Source of the DNA: Chthoniobacteraceae bacterium | Lineage (GTDB): Bacteria; Verrucomicrobiota; Verrucomicrobiia; Chthoniobacterales; Chthoniobacteraceae | Assembly (NCBI GenBank): GCA_031409655.1 | Contig: JANNXQ010000130.1 | Span: forward strand, 1-64,000 | Direction of reading: 5' to 3' | DNA length: 64,000 nt | Shown here: positions 3,606 to 22,023 of the stretch, one piece after another | Layout: each line of letters opens with the position of its first letter | Position numbering within the stretch: position 1 is the first letter of the stretch | The notes under the pieces: generated by a model | Seen by the model: only the letters and a program-made list of their open reading frames with translations | Databases searched by the model: none | What the model was told of the DNA's origin: nothing | Position numbers and translations under genes: made by a program

Positions 3606-4444
3606 GTCGTGGCGAGCGTTTCGCCTGGCGCAAACTCAGCGCCGCCAAGTGGGAGGATGTGTGGGTGGATCGGCTCAGTGAATTTCGCGACCGGCTCGCG
3701 ATCGTGGCGCTCGCGGGATCGCAGAGCATCCGGCTGGAAGCTTACGAACTGACGGGTGCGCAGGCGGATCGGCTGGTGAAGACTTTTGGCGGCCAGCAGC
3801 GCGCGATGAAGGAGCAACGCGCGTTGCATTCCCCGGCCCCGCGGCCGCCGATCAAGGTGCGCGACAAACTCGTGGTCGTCGCCACCGCAGCCGAGCGGAA
3901 GGCCGCGGCCTCCAGCAAACGGAAGGTCCTGCTCATCCCGGCGGGCATGGCCTTCGGCACTGGCGATCACGCGACGACCTCGACTTGCCTGCGCTTGCTC
4001 GCCGACGTGAGCGACGAGTTCGCGGATCAACCGTGGGAGATGCTCGATCTCGGCTGCGGCAGCGGCATCCTCGCCCTGGCCGCCCGCGCATTCGGCGCGC
4101 GGCGCGCGGAGGCTGGCGACTTCGATCCGGATTCCGTCCGCACCTCGAAGGAAAACGCTGCCGCCAACGGTATCCGCAACGTGACGGTGCGCCGTCTCGA
4201 CGTGCTGAAGTGGACGCCCACGCGGACCTGGCAAGTGGTGGCGGCGAACATGTACAGCAGCATCTTGATCCAAGCTGCGCCGACGATCGTGCGGGCGATG
4301 GAACCCGGCGGCCGCCTGATCTTCTCCGGCATCCTGCGCGAGCAGGAGCGCGGGGTCCTCGTCGCTTTCCGCGAAGCTGGCTTAAGCATCGAGCGGATCG
4401 TGCGGAAGGGGAAGTGGATCACTGGCCTCGCGCCCTGCAAGTAA
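3602..4444 (+). CDS. prmA: 50S ribosomal protein L11 methyltransferase (PrmA-like)
   Basis: PAGMAFGTGDHATT, LDLGCGSGILA, VVAAN, GRLIFSGIL; ATG at 3602 overlaps the upstream stop. Confidence 0.8.
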   Translation: MSRGERFAWRKLSAAKWEDVWVDRLSEFRDRLAIVALAGSQSIRLEAYELTGAQADRLVKTFGGQQRAMKEQRALHSPAPRPPIKVRDKLVVVATAAERKAAASSKRKVLLIPAGMAFGTGDHATTSTCLRLLADVSDEFADQPWEMLDLGCGSGILALAARAFGARRAEAGDFDPDSVRTSKENAAANGIRNVTVRRLDVLKWTPTRTWQVVAANMYSSILIQAAPTIVRAMEPGGRLIFSGILREQERGVLVAFREAGLSIERIVRKGKWITGLAPCK

Positions 4445-16725: not shown

Positions 16726-18273
16726 ATGACCACTCCGCGCAAGATCGTCCGCGCCCTCATCTCCGTTTCCGACAAGACCGGGCTCGTCCCTTTTGCCCGC
16801 GACCTCGTGGACATGGGCATCCAGATCATCTCCACCGGCGGCACCGCCAAGCTCCTCGCCAAGGAAGGCATCGCGGTCCAGGAGATCTCGGATTTCACCG
16901 GCTTCCCCGAGATCCTGGACGGACGCGTGAAGACGCTGCACCCGAAAGTCCACGGTGGCCTGCTTTACCTCCGGGAAAGCGCGGACCATGTGGCGCAGGC
17001 GGCGCAGCATGGCATCGAGCCGATCGACCTCGTGGTGGTGAATCTTTACCCCTTTGCCGAGACGATCGCGAAGCCCGGCACCACGCTCGAAGAAGCTATC
17101 GAGCAGATCGACATTGGCGGCCCATCGATGCTCCGCAGTGCGGCGAAAAACTACCGCTCGGTGACCGTGGTGGTGGATCCCGCGGACTACGCGGACGTGC
17201 TCGAGTCCATCCGCGACAACGACGGCACGACCACGCTGAAGTTGCGTGAGCGGCTCGGGATCAAGGTCTTCGTGGTCACCTCCAGCTACGACGAGGCGAT
17301 CGCGAATTACCTCAACAGAGAGCAGCAGGCCACGTCCTCTTTTTCCATCTCCCTGCCCTGCGTCGCCCGCCTCCGCTACGGTGAAAATCCGCACCAGACT
17401 GGCTCGCTTTACGGCGCGTGGGACGAGCATTTCCAAAAGCTCCACGGCAAGGATCTGTCTTACAATAACATCCTCGATATCACCGCGGCCTCGGAGCTGA
17501 TCGAGGAATTCACGGAACCGACCGTCGCCATCCTGAAGCACACCAATCCGTGCGGCGTGGGCAGCGATCCCGATCTGCGCGAGGCCTGGGACAAGGCCTT
17601 CGCCACGGACAAGCAGGCCCCCTTCGGTGGCATCATCATCTGCAATCGCCCACTCACCGAGGCACTGGCCAAGGCGATCAGCGGGATCTTTAGCGAAGTG
17701 ATCATCGCCCCGGATTTCGAGGCCGATGCGCGCGCGCTTTTGCAGAAAAAGAAGAATCTGCGGCTGATGCGGAAACTCTCCGTGCCGAAGCCGAAAGATC
17801 CGGAGGCCGACCTGCTCATGCGCAGCGTCGCCGGCGGCGTGCTCGTCCAGAGTCGCGACGCGGAGCCCGAGACGGAGCTGGAGAAAAAGGTCGTCACCGA
17901 GCGCCCGCCGACCATGCACGAGATGGCCGCGATGCTCTTCGGCTGGCGGGTCGTGAAGCATGTGAAATCCAACGCCATCGTGTACGCTGCGGCGGATCGC
18001 ACCCTGGGTATCGGCGCGGGCCAGATGTCCCGGGTGGACGCCTCCCGCATCGCCATCTGGAAAGCGGGCGACGCCGGCCTTTCGCTGGCCGGCAGTGCCG
18101 TCGCGAGCGACGCTTTCTTCCCCTTCCCCGACGGCCTCATCGCCGCCGCCGAAGCCGGCGCCACCTGCGCCATTCAACCCGGCGGCTCCGTCAAGGATCC
18201 GGAAGTGATCGCCGCCGCCAACGAGCGCAAGATGGCCATGATCTGCACTGGCCTGAGGCACTTCCGGCACTGA
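16726..18273 (+). CDS. purH: Bifunctional AICAR formyltransferase/IMP cyclohydrolase
   Basis: [71 protein letters not shown]. Confidence 0.97.
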
Positions 18274-18380: not shown

Positions 18381-19136
18381 ATGAAGCTAGGCGTCAATAT
18401 CGACCACGTCGCCACGCTCCGGCAGGCCCGCTACGCGGGATCGCTGGACTCGCCCAATGCGGAGCCCGACCTCGTCGCCGCCGCCGCCGCAGCCGAGCGC
18501 GGCGGAGCCCAGGGGATCACCGTCCATCTGCGCGCTGACCGCCGGCACATCCAGGACCGCGACATTACCCGCCTGCGCGAGACTTTGCTCACGAAGATGA
18601 ATCTCGAGATGGGCAACACGCCCGACATTCTCGAATTTGCCCTGCGGGTCATCCCCGAGGAGGTCTGCCTCGTCCCGGAGAACCGCAAGGAGATCACCAC
18701 CGAAGGCGGCCTCGACGCGGTGCGCTCCGAGAAGCAACTCGCGCCGACGATCAAGCGCCTCCAGGCCCACGAGATTCGCGTCAGTCTTTTCATCGAGCCG
18801 TCGCCGGATCAGATCGACGCCGCCCACCGGCTCGGTGCCGATATCGTGGAATTGCACACCGGCGCCTTTGCCAACGCCACCGGCATCGGGCTGAAAGGCG
18901 AACTCACCCGCTTGCGTTCCGCCGCCGAATACGCCCACTCCGCCGGCCTGCAAGTGAACGCCGGCCACGGCATCAACTACCTGAACATCCGCCTCGTCCG
19001 CACCGTCTCGCACCTTGCGGAGCTGAACATCGGCCACTCCATCGTCTCCCGGTCCGTCCTCGTGGGCCTGGAAGCCGCGACCGCGGAAATGCTCGCGGCG
19101 ATGGGCGGCGTGGAATGGTCCCATCTCGTGAAATAA
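18381..19136 (+). CDS. pdxJ: Pyridoxine 5'-phosphate synthase
   Basis: LGVNIDHVATLRQAR, ITVHLRADRRHI, TTEGGLD, NAGHG, ELNIGHSI. Confidence 0.96.
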   Translation: MKLGVNIDHVATLRQARYAGSLDSPNAEPDLVAAAAAAERGGAQGITVHLRADRRHIQDRDITRLRETLLTKMNLEMGNTPDILEFALRVIPEEVCLVPENRKEITTEGGLDAVRSEKQLAPTIKRLQAHEIRVSLFIEPSPDQIDAAHRLGADIVELHTGAFANATGIGLKGELTRLRSAAEYAHSAGLQVNAGHGINYLNIRLVRTVSHLAELNIGHSIVSRSVLVGLEAATAEMLAAMGGVEWSHLVK

Positions 19137-19288
19137 AACGGACCCTCCGCCTCCTCCTCCTCTGAGCGTTTCGCATAGGAGGTGGTGGTGTGATTAAATG
19201 TAGTGCCATGCGGGATGCGCGCGATGTCCCGGAGGGACGCTGGAAACTAGATACCGTGTTGGTCAAGAGAGGAAAAGAAGGGAGGGAT

Positions 19289-20296
19289 TTAAGGGGTCGT
19301 GAAGAGAGTGTGATTGGGGTTGTAGTCGGCTTTGGATTGGAGGAGAGCGAAGGCGGTGCGGACCATTTTGTGGAGGACGGCGAAGACGATGGCCATGGGG
19401 GTTTTGCCGGCGGCGCGGAGGCGCTCGGCAAAGGCTTTGGAGCGGGGGTCGCAGCGCAGCGCGGTGAGGGCCGGGAAGTAGAGTTTGGAGCGCAGCTCTG
19501 GGGCGGCGTGGCCGATGCGGGAAGCTTTGCGCACGGAGGTGCCGCTCTGGCACTGGCGCGGCACCACGCCCAGCCAGGCCGCGACGGAGCGGGCGTTTTT
19601 GAAGTGGCGCGGGAGCTCGGCGGCGAGCAGGCGTGCCGTCTTGCGGCCGCACCCGGGGATGGCCTCGAGGCGGGTGATGTCGGCGGCCAGCTCCGGGCTG
19701 TTGCGGAGGTGCGTGGCGACGGCTTTTTCCAGGCGGGCGAGTTCCGCGGCCAGCCACTTGGCCGAGCGTTGGAGGCTCTGGCGCAGAGCGGGCGCGGCGG
19801 GCGCGGTTTCCAGCCGGCGTTGCTCGGCTTGGAGGGCGACTTCCAGATCGGCCTGGCGGCGCAGCAGTTCGCGCAGGAGGGCTTGGGCGGGCGGCAGCGG
19901 CTGCCACTCCTCAAGGGGCTGGGTGGCGGCCATGCGGGCGATGAGCTGCGCATCGACCCGGTCGGTCTTGTTGCGGCGGCCGAGGCTGCGCGCGAAATCC
20001 AGCACGCGGCGGGGGTTGAGCACGGCGACGCGGTGGCCGGCGGCTTGCGCGGCCGTGGCCACGGCGAGGCTGTAGGCGCCCGTGGCCTCCAGGGCGATGA
20101 GGGCTTTCTCCACGCCTTGCGCGGCCAGCCAGGCCAGCATTTGCGCGTGGCCGTCCTGGGTATTGGCAAAGCGCTGATGAAGGGTGCGGGGAGTGACGAG
20201 CAGGGCGACATCGAGGGTGAGTTTGGCGACGTCGATGCCCAGCGCGGGGAGCGTGGCAGGGAGGGTTGGTGGGGAGGATGGAGCAGTTTGCGGCAT
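19289..20296 (-). CDS. IS110-family transposase/recombinase
   Basis: RuvC-like DEDD motifs LGIDVAK, LEATG, KTDRVDA; C-terminal IPGCG ... AAWLGVVP..QSGTSV with the conserved Ser. Confidence 0.95.
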   Translation of the reverse strand: MPQTAPSSPPTLPATLPALGIDVAKLTLDVALLVTPRTLHQRFANTQDGHAQMLAWLAAQGVEKALIALEATGAYSLAVATAAQAAGHRVAVLNPRRVLDFARSLGRRNKTDRVDAQLIARMAATQPLEEWQPLPPAQALLRELLRRQADLEVALQAEQRRLETAPAAPALRQSLQRSAKWLAAELARLEKAVATHLRNSPELAADITRLEAIPGCGRKTARLLAAELPRHFKNARSVAAWLGVVPRQCQSGTSVRKASRIGHAAPELRSKLYFPALTALRCDPRSKAFAERLRAAGKTPMAIVFAVLHKMVRTAFALLQSKADYNPNHTLFTTP

Positions 20297-20344
20297 GGCT
20301 TTTTGGTGGTGGGTGGTGGGGTTGATTTGGGTGGTGTGCAGTCT

Positions 20345-20540
20345 TGCTTTGAGGCGGCTCTCCGGCGCGGGGCGCAGGCTTGTGTGACGCAGTGCTCCGC
20401 GAGTAAACTCCCGGTCTGCCAGATACCGTCCGGCCTTTGGGCCGGAGAGGCGGCGGGGTCGGGTGCCTTTCTAATTTACAGGCTCAGTGTGACCTCAGCC
20501 GGTGACGGGTTACCCGCCCCGCTGCCTCAAAACGGACGCT
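20345..20540 (-). ncRNA. Putative IS110 bridge RNA (target-binding loop followed by donor-binding loop); boundaries approximate
   Basis: Stem 20447-20464/20512-20528 encloses target guides (20497-20505, 20471-20477); stem 20358-20366/20441-20449 encloses donor guides (20421-20429 identical to element end 19249-19257; 20379-20386 complementary to element end 20563-20570). Confidence 0.75.
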
Positions 20541-20583
20541 CTTGGTCTAACACGGCAATCAACACACAAGCCGTTCCCTCCAA

Positions 20584-22023
20584 ATGACAATCAAGCACAG
20601 CCATCCCATACGCCTCGTGTTTCCCGGCATCCGGCGGACTCGCGCTCAGCCCTCCTCACTCCCGGACGCCGATCCCCACTCTGGTCGTCCAGGGTGCGGC
20701 GGGCGCAAAAGCAAACTCCTGGCAGCAGTGCTCTCCTTCGCCGGCTTGCTGATGCCGCCAGTCGGCGCGCAGGAAGCGACGGCTTGGGCTGTTACCGCGA
20801 AGACCGCTCCGGCGGGGTTGCTCGATGTCGCATTGACGAAGCGCCAAGCCCTTTTCTTCACCCAGCAGCAGGTGGGAGGAAAGGTGATGCCCTTGGTTGG
20901 ATTCTTCATTGGTGCCGACGGGCTGGCCTTGTGTCCTCTGACTCCGCTTTCTTGGAAGACAGGTCCGAGGTTCGGGATGGATGACGGGGAAAAGACCTGG
21001 CTCCCGCGCCCTGCGGTGCTCGCCGTGTTTCCCGAACAGGAACTTGCTTTGGTGAAATTCGCCTTCAAGCCGAAGACATGGCTGAAGATTTCCAAAGAGC
21101 CAACGCCCGTCGGCACCTGGGTGGCCGTGCTTTCTCCGTCTTTTGCTCCGAATCCCGTCGTGGGCCCCATCCTGGCCCATCGGGAAATAACCTGGTCATC
21201 GCCATTGCTTCCACCGCGCCCACCGGTAAAGAAGTTCAGCTTTGCCGCCGGTCGCAGTCCCAGCATTGAGAAGGTATTCGTGGCAGGTGCGCCCCTGCTT
21301 GACGCGCGCGGGGAAGTCGTGGCGGCATTCTCCGGATCCCAGCCGATGCCTGGCCAGACTTTGAGAACAGCCAGTCCCCTTGCGGAGTTGCCGATGCGGA
21401 TTCAGGAGGCTGTCAAGATGGGGAAGCCACTGAAGCTTCCGCTCTCCGCCAAGGACTTGCAGTTGGATCCGGCTGCCTTGAGCGAGGAGAATCGCGCGAT
21501 GGAAGCTGCTCAAATGGAGGGGAACTTCGCGAAAGGCATGCAGCAAGCGAAAGCACTGGTCGCCAAGTTTCCTGACAGCCACTACGCGCGAACCTCGGAA
21601 TATGGTTTTGTCTCGAGGGAAGTTGATCTTGGGGAGGTCAGTGCGCAGGAGTTGGTCGAACTCGCGCAACAGTTTAAGCTTCAGGAAAATGACCCCCCAT
21701 GGGAAAAGGCCGCCTATTACAGCCGCCTCGGTGAAGCCCTCGGGCGTGCGAATCGCGTGGACGAAGCAATCGCCCCTTTACAGAAAGCCGACGAACTGTG
21801 GCCGCAGCAAATGGCGTGTATGAGCCTGGCAGTTCTCTTCGAGAAAAAGGGCCAATTGGAAGAGGCCGAGCGTTACTGGTGGCGTGCCACCAGTCTGGAT
21901 CAGGAGCGAATCGAGTATTGGAACCGACTCAGCCTGGTCCTTTCAGCACGCCTCAAATTCAAAGAAGTGAGCGAAGTGTCGGATCGTGTCCGCTTCCTCG
22001 AGGACCTTTATAGAAGGCGCTAA
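20584..22023 (+). CDS. Degenerate trypsin-like domain plus C-terminal TPR protein
   Basis: GFFIGADGLALC, QELALVKF, AGAPLLDARGEVV mirror trypsin-like motifs without the triad; TPR-like helices at the C-terminus; real start may be downstream. Confidence 0.6.
   Translation: MTIKHSHPIRLVFPGIRRTRAQPSSLPDADPHSGRPGCGGRKSKLLAAVLSFAGLLMPPVGAQEATAWAVTAKTAPAGLLDVALTKRQALFFTQQQVGGKVMPLVGFFIGADGLALCPLTPLSWKTGPRFGMDDGEKTWLPRPAVLAVFPEQELALVKFAFKPKTWLKISKEPTPVGTWVAVLSPSFAPNPVVGPILAHREITWSSPLLPPRPPVKKFSFAAGRSPSIEKVFVAGAPLLDARGEVVAAFSGSQPMPGQTLRTASPLAELPMRIQEAVKMGKPLKLPLSAKDLQLDPAALSEENRAMEAAQMEGNFAKGMQQAKALVAKFPDSHYARTSEYGFVSREVDLGEVSAQELVELAQQFKLQENDPPWEKAAYYSRLGEALGRANRVDEAIAPLQKADELWPQQMACMSLAVLFEKKGQLEEAERYWWRATSLDQERIEYWNRLSLVLSARLKFKEVSEVSDRVRFLEDLYRRR

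What the first reader, a model, noticed from the sequence alone, without database searches (positions are those of the whole stretch)
20297..20570. Readable bridge-RNA architecture in the IS110 non-coding end: all four guide segments can be assigned
Seen: on the minus strand the ~270 nt before the recombinase ATG fold into two consecutive stem-loops. Loop 2 (outer stem CTCTCCGGC/GCCGGAGAG, 9 bp perfect) contains ACGGTATCT (plus 20421-20429), identical 9/9 to the far end of the element (19249-19257). It also contains CACACAAG (plus 20379-20386), complementary 8/8 to the near end CTTGTGTG (20563-20570). Loop 1 (outer stem 20447-20464/20512-20528) contains TCACCGGCT, 6/9 to the left flank GGAACGGCT, and AAATTAG, pairing with the right flank CTAGTTT with one G:U. 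Both left guides end in CT followed by G, and both right guides are preceded by GT. Established: IS110 elements such as IS621 use a bispecific RNA with a target-binding loop then a donor-binding loop around a CT core. From memory the IS621 donor is ACAGTATCTTGTAT, 12/14 to the junction here; this needs checking. Inference: an intact RNA-guided recombinase orthologue with donor ACGGTAT-CT-TGTGT and preferred target near TCACCGG-CT-AATTT.
Basis: partly seen in the sequence, partly recalled or inferred. Interest (0 to 1): 0.9.

Follow-up and report, generated by a model that had tools for sequence, protein, structure and literature searches.

The report
IS110 jumping gene with bridge RNA
This is an intact, multi-copy IS110-type jumping gene whose non-coding left end encodes a two-loop guide ("bridge") RNA that spells out both the element's own ends and the repeat sequence it inserts into; it is a clear new example of a mechanism described in 2024, not a new mechanism.

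Summary
Window 19249-20570 (minus strand) is a 1322-bp IS110-group element: a 274-nt left end, a 335-aa DEDD/Ser recombinase gene and a 40-nt right end, with CT at both ends.

All four guides sit where the IS621 model puts them.
- 3 of 3 other left junctions read CCACCGG|CT.
- 2 of 2 other right junctions read CT|AATTT.
- Four empty CACCGGCTAATTT sites lie at the foot of a REP-like hairpin repeat.

The window copy itself sits in a degenerate site.

New evidence found here:
- Handshake guides: CC after the RDG complements target G6G7.
- Guide/end covariation in relatives with 42-49% protein identity.
- The RNA segment is the best-conserved part of the element.
- The IS621 donor ACAGTATCTTGTAT is confirmed in print, 12 of 14 to this junction.

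Orthologues favour a three-way junction, closed by pairing of the leader with the tail, in place of a local 5' stem-loop.

No RNA or circle evidence was available.

Verdict: new member of a known kind. This scan has found other IS110 bridge RNAs in other genomes, none similar in sequence to this one.

The parts
19249..20570 (-). Whole IS110-group element, counted with the CT at both ends (1322 bp)
   Evidence: In run X1 the collapsed repeat contig spans exactly 19248-20573, at depth 84.7 against 11-17 in the flanks.
20297..20570 (-). Left end (LE), 274 nt, non-coding, encodes the bridge RNA
   Evidence: The LE is much longer than the RE (40 nt), as described for the IS110 group.
20569..20570 (-). 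CT core at the left junction
20524..20533 (-). P0 closing helix, 5' strand (GUUUUGAGGC). Its GAGGC can alternatively pair with GCCUC at 20447-20451.
20453..20522 (-). Target-binding arm (TBL): stem 20512-20522 / 20453-20464 enclosing the internal loop
   Evidence: 92% of cells paired; 4 pairs changed on both sides.
20497..20505 (-). Left target guide (LTG), UCACCGGCU. It equals the top strand of left target plus core.
   Evidence: 8/9 identical to 3 of 3 other left flanks; position 1 would be a U:G wobble.
20481..20494 (-). TBL inner stem-loop, GGUCA-CAC-UGA(G)CC
   Evidence: In L027 the two changes keep pairing as U:G and G:U.
20471..20477 (-). Right target guide (RTG), AAAUUAG. It is the reverse complement of CT+AATTT.
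   Evidence: 7/7 to 2 of 2 other right flanks.
20469..20470 (-). TBL handshake guide, AA. The first A complements donor T7; the second does not fit donor A6.
20358..20449 (-). Donor-binding arm (DBL): outer stem 20441-20449 / 20358-20366, second stem GGCC / G(C)GCC
   Evidence: 96.7% and 100% of cells paired.
20421..20429 (-). Left donor guide (LDG), ACGGUAUCU. It equals the last 9 nt of the element.
   Evidence: Reached in 1 of 5000 shuffles.
20389..20419 (-). DBL inner stem-loop, GCAG-A-CCG-G-GAG-UUUA-CUC-G-CGG-AGCA-CUGC
   Evidence: An equivalent stem-loop of different sequence is present in L009, L010 and L034.
20379..20386 (-). Right donor guide (RDG), CACACAAG. It is the reverse complement of the first 8 nt of the element.
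20377..20378 (-). DBL handshake guide, CC. It complements target G7 and G6 of CCACCGG.
20346..20355 (-). P0 closing helix, 3' strand (GCCUCAAAGC)
19289..20296 (-). Recombinase gene, 335 aa. D22, E70, D112, D115 and S251 align with the IS621 catalytic residues.
19249..19288 (-). Right end (RE), 40 nt, ending ACGGTAT-CT
19261..19266 (-). TTGACC, a -35-like hexamer 12 nt from the right terminus. It would face the LE only in the circular form.
   Evidence: conserved in L027 and L028. The promoter role is inferred; no good -10 was found.
20571..20579 (-). Left flank of this copy, AGGGAACGG: a degenerate left target (6/9 to the LTG when the core is counted)
19242..19248 (-). Right flank of this copy, AGTTTCC: right target with one G:U against the RTG
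   Evidence: The flank resembles the repeat copy on contig C218.

Best explanation
Window 19249-20570 is an intact IS110-group insertion sequence of the IS621 type, most likely recently active. Its left end is proposed to be transcribed into a bridge RNA of about 190 nt, on the same strand as the recombinase gene.

Proposed mechanism:
- One internal loop (TBL) reads the target CCACCGG-CT-AATTT, which lies at the 3' foot of a REP-like hairpin repeat of the host.
- The other loop (DBL) reads the joined ends of the excised element, ACGGTAT-CT-TGTGTG.
- In each loop the 5' guide pairs with the bottom strand and the 3' guide pairs with the top strand, and both cover the CT core.
- Two further nucleotides after each right guide (handshake guides) fit the other DNA partner after strand exchange.
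- A DEDD/Ser recombinase (D22, E70, D112, D115, S251) cuts and exchanges strands at CT.

Shown here: the complementarities, their covariation in relatives, the insertion sites of other copies, the empty sites, and the conserved catalytic residues.

Inferred from IS621 biochemistry and structures: transcription, RNA binding, catalysis, and a circular intermediate.
For: Protein:
- Both IS110 Pfam domains are present.
- It aligns to the IS621 and ISCro4 chains at E = 1.6e-52 and 4.2e-52. Asp, Glu, Asp, Asp and Ser align to chain residues D13, E62, D104, D107 and S243. I take these to be the paper's D11, E60, D102, D105 and S241 with a +2 construct offset.

Architecture:
- The order is TBL then DBL. 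The 5' guides are identical to the top strand and the 3' guides are its reverse complement, as published.
- The linkers named for IS621 recur here: GU before both right guides (G72-U73, G155-U156), GG before the LDG (G121-G122), and U after the DBL handshake guide (U168).

Target prediction tested out of sample:
- One search found 5 further partial copies at contig ends, 99-100% identical.
- 3 of 3 left flanks read CCACCGG|CT and 2 of 2 right flanks read CT|AATTT.
- L027, L028 and a second copy in L028 sit in the same site.
- There are 4 empty CACCGGCTAATTT sites in the genome, against about 0.1 expected from base composition (my own arithmetic), plus one in L027. All lie beside the same hairpin repeat.

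Handshake guides:
- The DBL handshake guide CC complements target G7 and G6. In L031 it is G, opposite target C7.
- The TBL handshake guide A complements donor T7. In L031, AU complements donor T7 and A6.

Covariation of guides with DNA:
- L009: RE ATGGTAT with LDG AUGGUAU; LE TGTCT with RDG AGACA.
- L031: RE ATTGGAT with LDG AUUGGAU (3 changes mirrored); LE TGTAG with RDG CUACA; left flank CCCGCC-C with LTG CCCGCCC.

Structure:
- 34 stem pairs across 7 sequences are 91.3% paired, against 38.7-50.2% when the partner is slid.
- 8 pairs changed on both sides (1 of 500 shuffles reach this).
- Covariation score is 0.209 against 0.118 (0 of 500).

Conservation against L027 / L028:
- RNA segment: 95.2% / 93.6% identical.
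- CDS: 87.5% / 83.0%.
- Spacer: 69% / 51%.

Chance control: all four guides together were reached in 0 of 5000 shuffles.

Copy number: the repeat contig has depth 84.7 against 11-17 in the flanks in X1, and 19 against 4-5 in X2.
Against: - No RNA data. No listed sequencing run is on record as RNA.
- No circle junction. ACGGTATCTTGTGT occurs 0 times in the assembly, and no such joint appears in the contigs of 4 runs. Contigs drop rare forms.
- No sigma-70-type promoter in the integrated copy (0 found). In the joined form the RE supplies TTGACC, but the best -10 candidates (GTTGAT or TTGATT at 17 or 18 nt) are poor (read by eye).
- No Rfam family matches (5 hits, all E > 3), and I had no published bridge-RNA covariance model to score against.
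- This copy's own left flank fits the LTG at only 6/9.
- In unconstrained folds, the 3' part of the LTG (GGCU) pairs into the inner stem in the window, L027 and L028.
- The published local 5' stem-loop is not evident.
- Covariation rests on 5 complete and 2 partial elements, which are kin.
- The DBL model matched only the nearest clade: 2 of 21 non-training loci at E < 0.01; L034 and L031 but not L032; 3 of 151 family genomes, own included.
Confidence: 0.9

Rival explanations
1. The left end acts as structured DNA rather than RNA. Sub-terminal hairpins with short guide sequences would pair with the cleavage sites on single-stranded DNA, as in IS200/IS605 elements.
For: The complementarities would hold equally for the DNA strand of the same sense.
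Against: - The protein is a DEDD/Ser IS110 recombinase, not a Y1 HUH transposase.
- For IS621 the RNA is necessary and sufficient in vitro and is seen in the cryo-EM complexes.
- Several stem positions are kept through G:U pairs in the sense orientation only (L027).
- The model scores 123 bits on the sense strand of L027 against 22 bits on the antisense strand, although the model was built on the sense strand.
Confidence: 0.03
2. The folded leader is mainly a cis-regulatory 5' UTR or small-RNA element controlling recombinase expression. The matches to the ends and target would then be side effects of terminal repeats and site preference set by the protein.
For: [quoted passage not shown] The P0 3' strand and the tail lie about 50-75 nt upstream of the ATG, so alternative pairings could affect translation.
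Against: - The guides change together with the DNA they match in L009 and L031.
- The match to a target outside the element cannot come from terminal repeats.
- The spacer next to the ATG is the least conserved part of the element.
Confidence: 0.04
3. The element is a decayed or immobile relic, and the readable guides are historical.
For: - The window copy sits in a poorly matching site.
- No circle junction or empty allele of this locus was found.
- Relatives include a solo left end (L034) and a truncated copy (L010).
Against: - The ORF is complete with catalytic residues intact.
- At least 4 left and 3 right junctions are 99-100% identical.
- Depth suggests roughly 4-7 copies.
- Empty cognate sites remain available.
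Confidence: 0.03

Closest known systems
IS621 of Escherichia coli (IS110 group): bridge RNA and recombinase. Durrant et al. 2024, PMC11208160 (sections 5-8, 12 and passages read). Hiraizumi et al. 2024, PMC11208158 (passages read). PDB 8wt6.
   Same: - DEDD plus Ser recombinase (E = 1.6e-52).
- RNA encoded in a long LE.
- TBL followed by DBL.
- 9-nt left guides identical to the top strand, and right guides complementary to it.
- CT core.
- GU and GG linkers.
- Handshake guides.
- Donor 12/14 identical (ACGGTATCTTGTGT against ACAGTATCTTGTAT).
- -35-like box in the RE.
- REP-type targets.
   Different: - Different target sequence.
- The RTG covers the core plus 5 nt, against a four-base RTG in IS621.
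- The RDG pairs contiguously at 8/8, whereas IS621 pairs 9 RNA nucleotides discontiguously with 7 donor bases.
- The LDG keeps the full CU core.
- The leader pairs with the tail (P0, three-way junction) instead of forming a local 5' stem-loop.
- I could not align the two RNAs directly, because no tool gave me the IS621 RNA sequence.
ISPpu10 of Pseudomonas putida (IS110 group). Na et al., bioRxiv 10.64898/2026.03.19.712850 (abstract read).
   Same: All canonical insertions lie in copies of a conserved intergenic repeat that carries a GC-rich stem-loop on the 5' side of the target.
   Different: Here the left target CCACCGG is itself the 3' arm of the hairpin CCGGTGG...CCACCGG. Whether the hairpin adds specificity here is untested. 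The window copy lacks it.
ISCro4 recombinase (PDB 9t56)
   Same: Protein similarity equal to that with IS621 (E = 4.2e-52, residues 16-326).
   Different: I did not see its RNA or target.
IS1111 group elements with RE-encoded bridge/seek RNA (Durrant 2024, section 12)
   Same: Same recombinase family and same guide logic.
   Different: In IS1111 the RNA lies in the RE, the elements have long sub-terminal inverted repeats, and the donor guides often sit in a multi-loop. Here the RNA is in the LE and the RE is only 40 nt.

Membership tests
IS110 family, IS110 group (bridge recombinase elements) | Recombinase with an N-terminal DEDD (RuvC-like) domain and a C-terminal Tnp domain | tested here: met
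   PF01548 at 1.8e-24 (residues 19-163) and PF02371 at 9.4e-19 (residues 208-289).
IS110 family, IS110 group (bridge recombinase elements) | Catalytic Asp, Glu, Asp, Asp and Ser | tested here: met
   D22, E70, D112, D115 and S251 align to the corresponding residues of chain 8wt6_A. Their roles are taken from Hiraizumi 2024. The +2 numbering offset is my inference.
IS110 family, IS110 group (bridge recombinase elements) | Long non-coding LE, short RE, no terminal inverted repeats, CT core at both junctions | tested here: met
   LE is 274 nt and RE is 40 nt. CT is present at both ends in the window, L027, L028, L009 and L031.
Bridge RNA (IS621 type) | Two successive stem-loops with internal loops, the first for the target and the second for the donor | tested here: met
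Bridge RNA (IS621 type) | [quoted passage not shown] The 3' side is the reverse complement of core plus right DNA (4-7 nt). | tested here: met
   LDG 9/9 and RDG 8/8. LTG 8/9 and RTG 7/7 against the other copies.
Bridge RNA (IS621 type) | Guides covary with target and donor across orthologues | tested here: met
   L009 and L031 mirror the changes in LDG/RE, RDG/LE and (L031) LTG/flank. The sample is small: 5 complete elements.
Bridge RNA (IS621 type) | Handshake guides after each right guide fit the non-cognate DNA and not the cognate one | tested here: met
   - DBL handshake guide CC against target GG: 2/2.
- TBL handshake guide AA against donor T7 and A6: 1/2.
- Neither pairs with its own DNA.
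- The L031 DBL handshake guide G sits opposite target C7.
Bridge RNA (IS621 type) | Local 5' stem-loop ahead of the TBL | tested here: inconclusive
   No conserved local hairpin was found. Instead the leader pairs with the tail (P0). P0 is in the unconstrained minimum-energy fold of 6 of 7 sequences and its cells are 82.9% paired.
Bridge RNA (IS621 type) | Promoter rebuilt across the RE-LE junction, and RNA detectable | not testable with these tools
   TTGACC lies in the RE 12 nt from the end, but the -10 candidate is poor. No promoter was found in the integrated copy. No RNA run is listed.
Bridge RNA (IS621 type) | Match to a curated or published covariance model of bridge RNAs | not testable with these tools
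   None of the 4227 Rfam models matches (best E = 3.5). The published custom model was not available to me.

The most novel reading that the evidence does not exclude
In this clade the local 5' stem-loop of the published bridge RNA is replaced by a long-range helix (P0) between the leader and the sequence just after the donor loop. The RNA would then be a closed three-way junction.

GAGGC at 20524-20528 can pair either with the tail (GCCUC at 20351-20355) or with an identical GCCUC at 20447-20451 at the foot of the target arm. The RNA could therefore switch between two folds. One consequence might be that only transcripts running past the donor loop adopt the active shape.
Probability: 0.3. 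Interest if true: 0.45.

Novelty: new member of a known kind. Interest (0 to 1): 0.3.

Why it matters
- It adds a fully readable natural bridge-RNA system from an uncultured, high-GC (63%) freshwater-sediment bacterium. The donor, target, handshake guides, cognate empty sites and one off-consensus insertion can all be read from sequence.
- Such natural pairs are useful as orthologues for programmable recombination and for learning the rules of target choice. Examples here are a 7-nt right target guide, a contiguous right donor guide, and a target at a hairpin foot.
- The possible three-way-junction fold is a modest structural variant that could be tested.
- None of this changes the known mechanism.

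Tried and rejected
- Rfam scan of 19000-20900 at E <= 10: 5 chance-level hits and no relevant family.
- Genome-contig scan with the protein: one relative at 29% identity (L007), not used.
- Metagenome scan: 4 loci. L027 and L028 were used. L029 (32%) and L030 (26%) were not used.
- blastn (distant mode) of the element against E. coli genomes, hoping to fetch IS621: no match. No direct RNA-to-RNA comparison with IS621 was therefore made.
- Family-level protein search: 19 loci at 32-49% identity. The DBL model recognised only L009 and L010 among 21 non-training loci. The other loci were not analysed further, so nothing is claimed about them.
- Phylum sample: 2 further loci. L031 was matched and L032 was not.
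- Empty allele of the window's own locus in the 3 other genomes of the genus: not found with this query.
- Sequencing runs: no RNA holder listed.
- Contigs of X1, X2, X5 and X6 laid on 19000-20800: no contig joins across the element and none shows a circle joint. The five short 'skips' (74-187 nt) are single low-depth contigs at sides of 21-40 nt, and I take them to be relatives or repeats.
- Literature search for 'bridge RNA' + IS110 + 'three-way junction': 0 papers.
- Promoter scan of the integrated copy: 0 sites.
- MAFFT misaligned the inner stem-loops and parts of L031. For that reason 17 of my 51 proposed pairs were left out of the pair count.

Full report
**What is there**

On the minus strand, window 19249-20570 is a 1322-bp unit bounded by CT at both ends. 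It consists of:
- a 274-nt non-coding left end (LE, 20570-20297);
- a 335-codon ORF (20296-19289);
- a 40-nt right end (RE, 19288-19249).

The protein carries both IS110 domains: PF01548 at 1.8e-24 and PF02371 at 9.4e-19. It aligns over residues 16-326 to the solved IS621 recombinase (8wt6, E = 1.6e-52) and to ISCro4 (9t56, 4.2e-52).

In that alignment D22, E70, D112, D115 and S251 stand opposite chain residues D13, E62, D104, D107 and S243. I take these to be the D11, E60, D102, D105 and S241 that Hiraizumi et al. describe as the composite active site. The +2 shift is my inference from residue identity.

**The observation**

- LDG ACGGUAUCU (20429-20421) equals the last 9 nt of the element.
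- RDG CACACAAG (20386-20379) is the reverse complement of the first 8 nt.
- LTG UCACCGGCU (20505-20497) matches this copy's left flank at 6/9.
- RTG AAAUUAG (20477-20471) pairs with CTAGTTT with one G:U.

The LE folds better than shuffles (z = -3.08).

For a chance control, 5000 dinucleotide shuffles of the LE body were scored against the element ends and against the target taken from other copies. The observed match was reached 1, 75, 455 and 27 times for LDG, RDG, LTG and RTG. All four were never reached together.

It is 12/14 to ACGGTATCTTGTGT.

**Comparison with the published scheme**

Durrant et al. (sections 6 and 7) describe a 5' stem-loop followed by a target-binding and then a donor-binding stem-loop. 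In each, the 5' side of the internal loop pairs with the bottom strand (8-9 nt) and the 3' side pairs with the top strand (4-7 nt). Both include the core. The order, strand sense and lengths here are the same.

Hiraizumi et al. name the IS621 linkers and handshake guides:
- G72-U73 and G155-U156 before the right guides. Here GU precedes both right guides.
- G121-G122 before the LDG. Here it is GG.
- G80 and G165 opposite core C, followed by two handshake nucleotides and, in the DBL, U168. Here the sequence reads ...AAG-CC-U.

The handshake rule is that these two nucleotides fit positions 7 and 6 of the other DNA and not of the cognate DNA. It is met 2/2 for the DBL: CC against G7 and G6 of CCACCGG. 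It is met 1/2 for the TBL: A against donor T7, but A against donor A6. Neither handshake guide fits its own DNA.

**Independent test of the target**

The assembly (306 contigs) holds 5 more partial copies at contig ends, 99-100% identical.
- The three left junctions read GCCACCGG|CT, ACCACCGG|CT and ACCACCGG|CT.
- The two right junctions read CT|AATTTC and CT|AATTTG.
- So the LTG matches 8/9. Position 1 is U opposite a bottom-strand G, a possible wobble. The RTG matches 7/7.

Two metagenome relatives, L027 and L028 (89% and 82% protein identity), sit in the same site. L028 holds a second, inverted copy in another such site. L027 also holds an empty site, TTCACCACCGGCTAATTTCC.

The genome itself has 4 empty CACCGGCTAATTT sites (contigs C5, C126, C150, C218). 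About 0.1 would be expected from base composition by my own arithmetic.

All these sites lie at the 3' foot of a palindromic repeat. It comes in a long form (CCGGTGGTTCCGC...CTTCACCACCGG) and a short form (CCGGTGGCTGACGCCACCGG). It is followed by CT-AATTTC and a second small GC hairpin. This is the REP-type targeting known for IS110 elements. It also recalls the stem-loop-bearing target of ISPpu10 (abstract).

The window copy is the exception. Its right flank belongs to the repeat family (compare C218). Its left flank, AGGGAACGG, lacks the hairpin arm and matches only CGG-CT plus one A. I read this as an off-consensus insertion. Half-matched off-target insertion has been reported for IS621 (abstract). 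An adjacent rearrangement is not excluded.

**Relatives and covariation**

A covariance model of the donor arm, built from the window, L027 and L028, found the arm in four further loci:
- L009 (49% protein identity): 39 bits.
- L010: 26 bits.
- L034: 52 bits.
- L031 (42% protein identity): 22 bits.

It did not find the arm in the other 19 loci or in L032. Across the family it matched 3 of 151 genomes, own genome included.

The ends of L009 and L031 can be read off.
- L009: the RE ends ATGGTAT-CT and the LDG is AUGGUAUC. The LE starts CT-TGTCT and the RDG is CAGACAAG.
- L031: the RE ends ATTGGAT-CT and the LDG is AUUGGAUC. The LE starts CT-TGTAG and the RDG is CUACAAG.
- L031 flanks: the left flank TCCCGCC-CT matches LTG CCCCCGCCC over CCCGCCC. 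The right flank CT-AC fits RTG GUAG.
- L031 handshake guides: TBL AU fits donor T7 and A6, and DBL G fits target C7.

Each change in the DNA is mirrored in the RNA.

On the MAFFT alignment of the seven LEs, 34 stem pairs are 91.3% paired, against 38.7-50.2% when the 3' partner is slid. Eight pairs change on both sides (1 of 500 shuffles reach this). The covariation score is 0.209 against 0.118 (0 of 500).

I left out the 17 inner-stem-loop pairs, which MAFFT misaligned. L031 is partly misaligned in P0 and the TBL stem. These sequences are kin, so the shuffle counts overstate independence.

The RNA segment is the best-conserved part of the element. It is 95.2% and 93.6% identical to L027 and L028. 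The CDS is 87.5% and 83.0% identical, and the spacer before the ATG is 69% and 51% identical.

**Amended structure**

In all seven sequences the leader just before the TBL pairs with the sequence just after the DBL. I call this helix P0. In the window it is GUUUUGAGGC (20533-20524) with GCCUCAAAGC (20355-20346). Its outer extension has a different, complementary sequence in each of the window, L027, L028, L009/L010, L034 and L031 (read by eye; inner part counted).

P0 appears in the unconstrained minimum-energy fold of 6 of 7 sequences, all but the window. With P0 formed, the TBL arm (20522-20453) and the DBL arm (20449-20358) are both complete and the RNA is a three-way junction.

In the window, GAGGC can alternatively pair with an identical GCCUC at 20451-20447.

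I found no conserved local 5' stem-loop. I found no paper joining 'bridge RNA', IS110 and 'three-way junction'. Durrant et al. do state that bridge RNA structures are diverse (section 12). I could not compare with the IS621 RNA directly, because no tool gave me its sequence (one search found nothing).

**Activity**

- There are at least 4 left and 3 right junctions.
- In run X1, which may be the source of the assembly, one collapsed contig spans exactly 19248-20573. Its depth is 84.7, against 11-17 for the flanking contigs. In X2 the figures are 19 against 4-5.
- That contig is the element plus the target bases shared by all copies. This fits the stated ends and several copies per genome.
- No circle junction, no empty allele of this locus and no RNA data were obtained.
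- The RE carries TTGACC 12 nt from its tip, conserved in L027 and L028. This is as expected if a promoter is rebuilt on the circle. The matching -10 is weak, and the integrated copy has no sigma-70-like site.

**Verdict**

This is an intact, recently active IS110-group element with a canonical bispecific bridge RNA, and its target I could verify on independent copies.

It is a new member of a known kind. The same scan has already reported IS110 bridge RNAs in other genomes, none with sequence similarity to this one.

The only departures are modest: a longer RTG, a contiguous RDG, and a closing helix in place of the 5' stem-loop.

Noticed in passing
G000 contig C73, minus strand near 3790: A short-form repeat hairpin CCGGTGGCTGACGCCACCGG is followed by TATCTAATCTCC. 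That is the canonical left target, then TAT (the last 3 nt of the element before its CT), then CT-AATCT. It may be a scar of imprecise loss of a copy, or just a variant.
   Followed up: no
L034 (G109:C115), oriented positions 1389-1610: A complete left end with a bridge-RNA-like sequence (52 bits to the DBL model; P0, TBL and DBL all readable) but no IS110 recombinase gene downstream. It is a solo left end or a truncated element.
   Followed up: partly
L010 (G129:C55), 1271-2040: A related element whose left junction reads TT instead of CT and whose recombinase frame stops matching at about residue 177. It is probably a decayed copy.
   Followed up: no
window 19256-19261 and 20560-20565: A 6-bp sub-terminal inverted repeat, CAACAC / GTGTTG, flanks the donor core. 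It is longer than the 2-3 bp pattern that Durrant et al. mention for the IS110 group.
   Followed up: no
G000 contigs C5, C29, C67, C73, C126, C150, C218, C247: A small family of palindromic REP-like repeats in two forms (20-nt and 35-37-nt hairpins on CCGGTGG/CCACCGG arms), often followed by a second hairpin such as GCGCC-TCC-GGCGC or GTCCC-TCC-GGGAC. It serves as the landing pad of this IS.
   Followed up: partly
window 20647-20730 (+), inside ORF 20584-22023: This stretch of about 80 nt has 76-83% DNA matches on contigs C39 and C57 (three places) and in one genome of the same genus. It is a short repeated segment near the 5' end of a gene.
   Followed up: no
window 16726-18273 (+) and 18381-19136 (+): The element sits just downstream of two long ORFs (515 aa and 251 aa). 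By eye they look like purH-type and pdxJ-type housekeeping genes. No family search was run on them.
   Followed up: no
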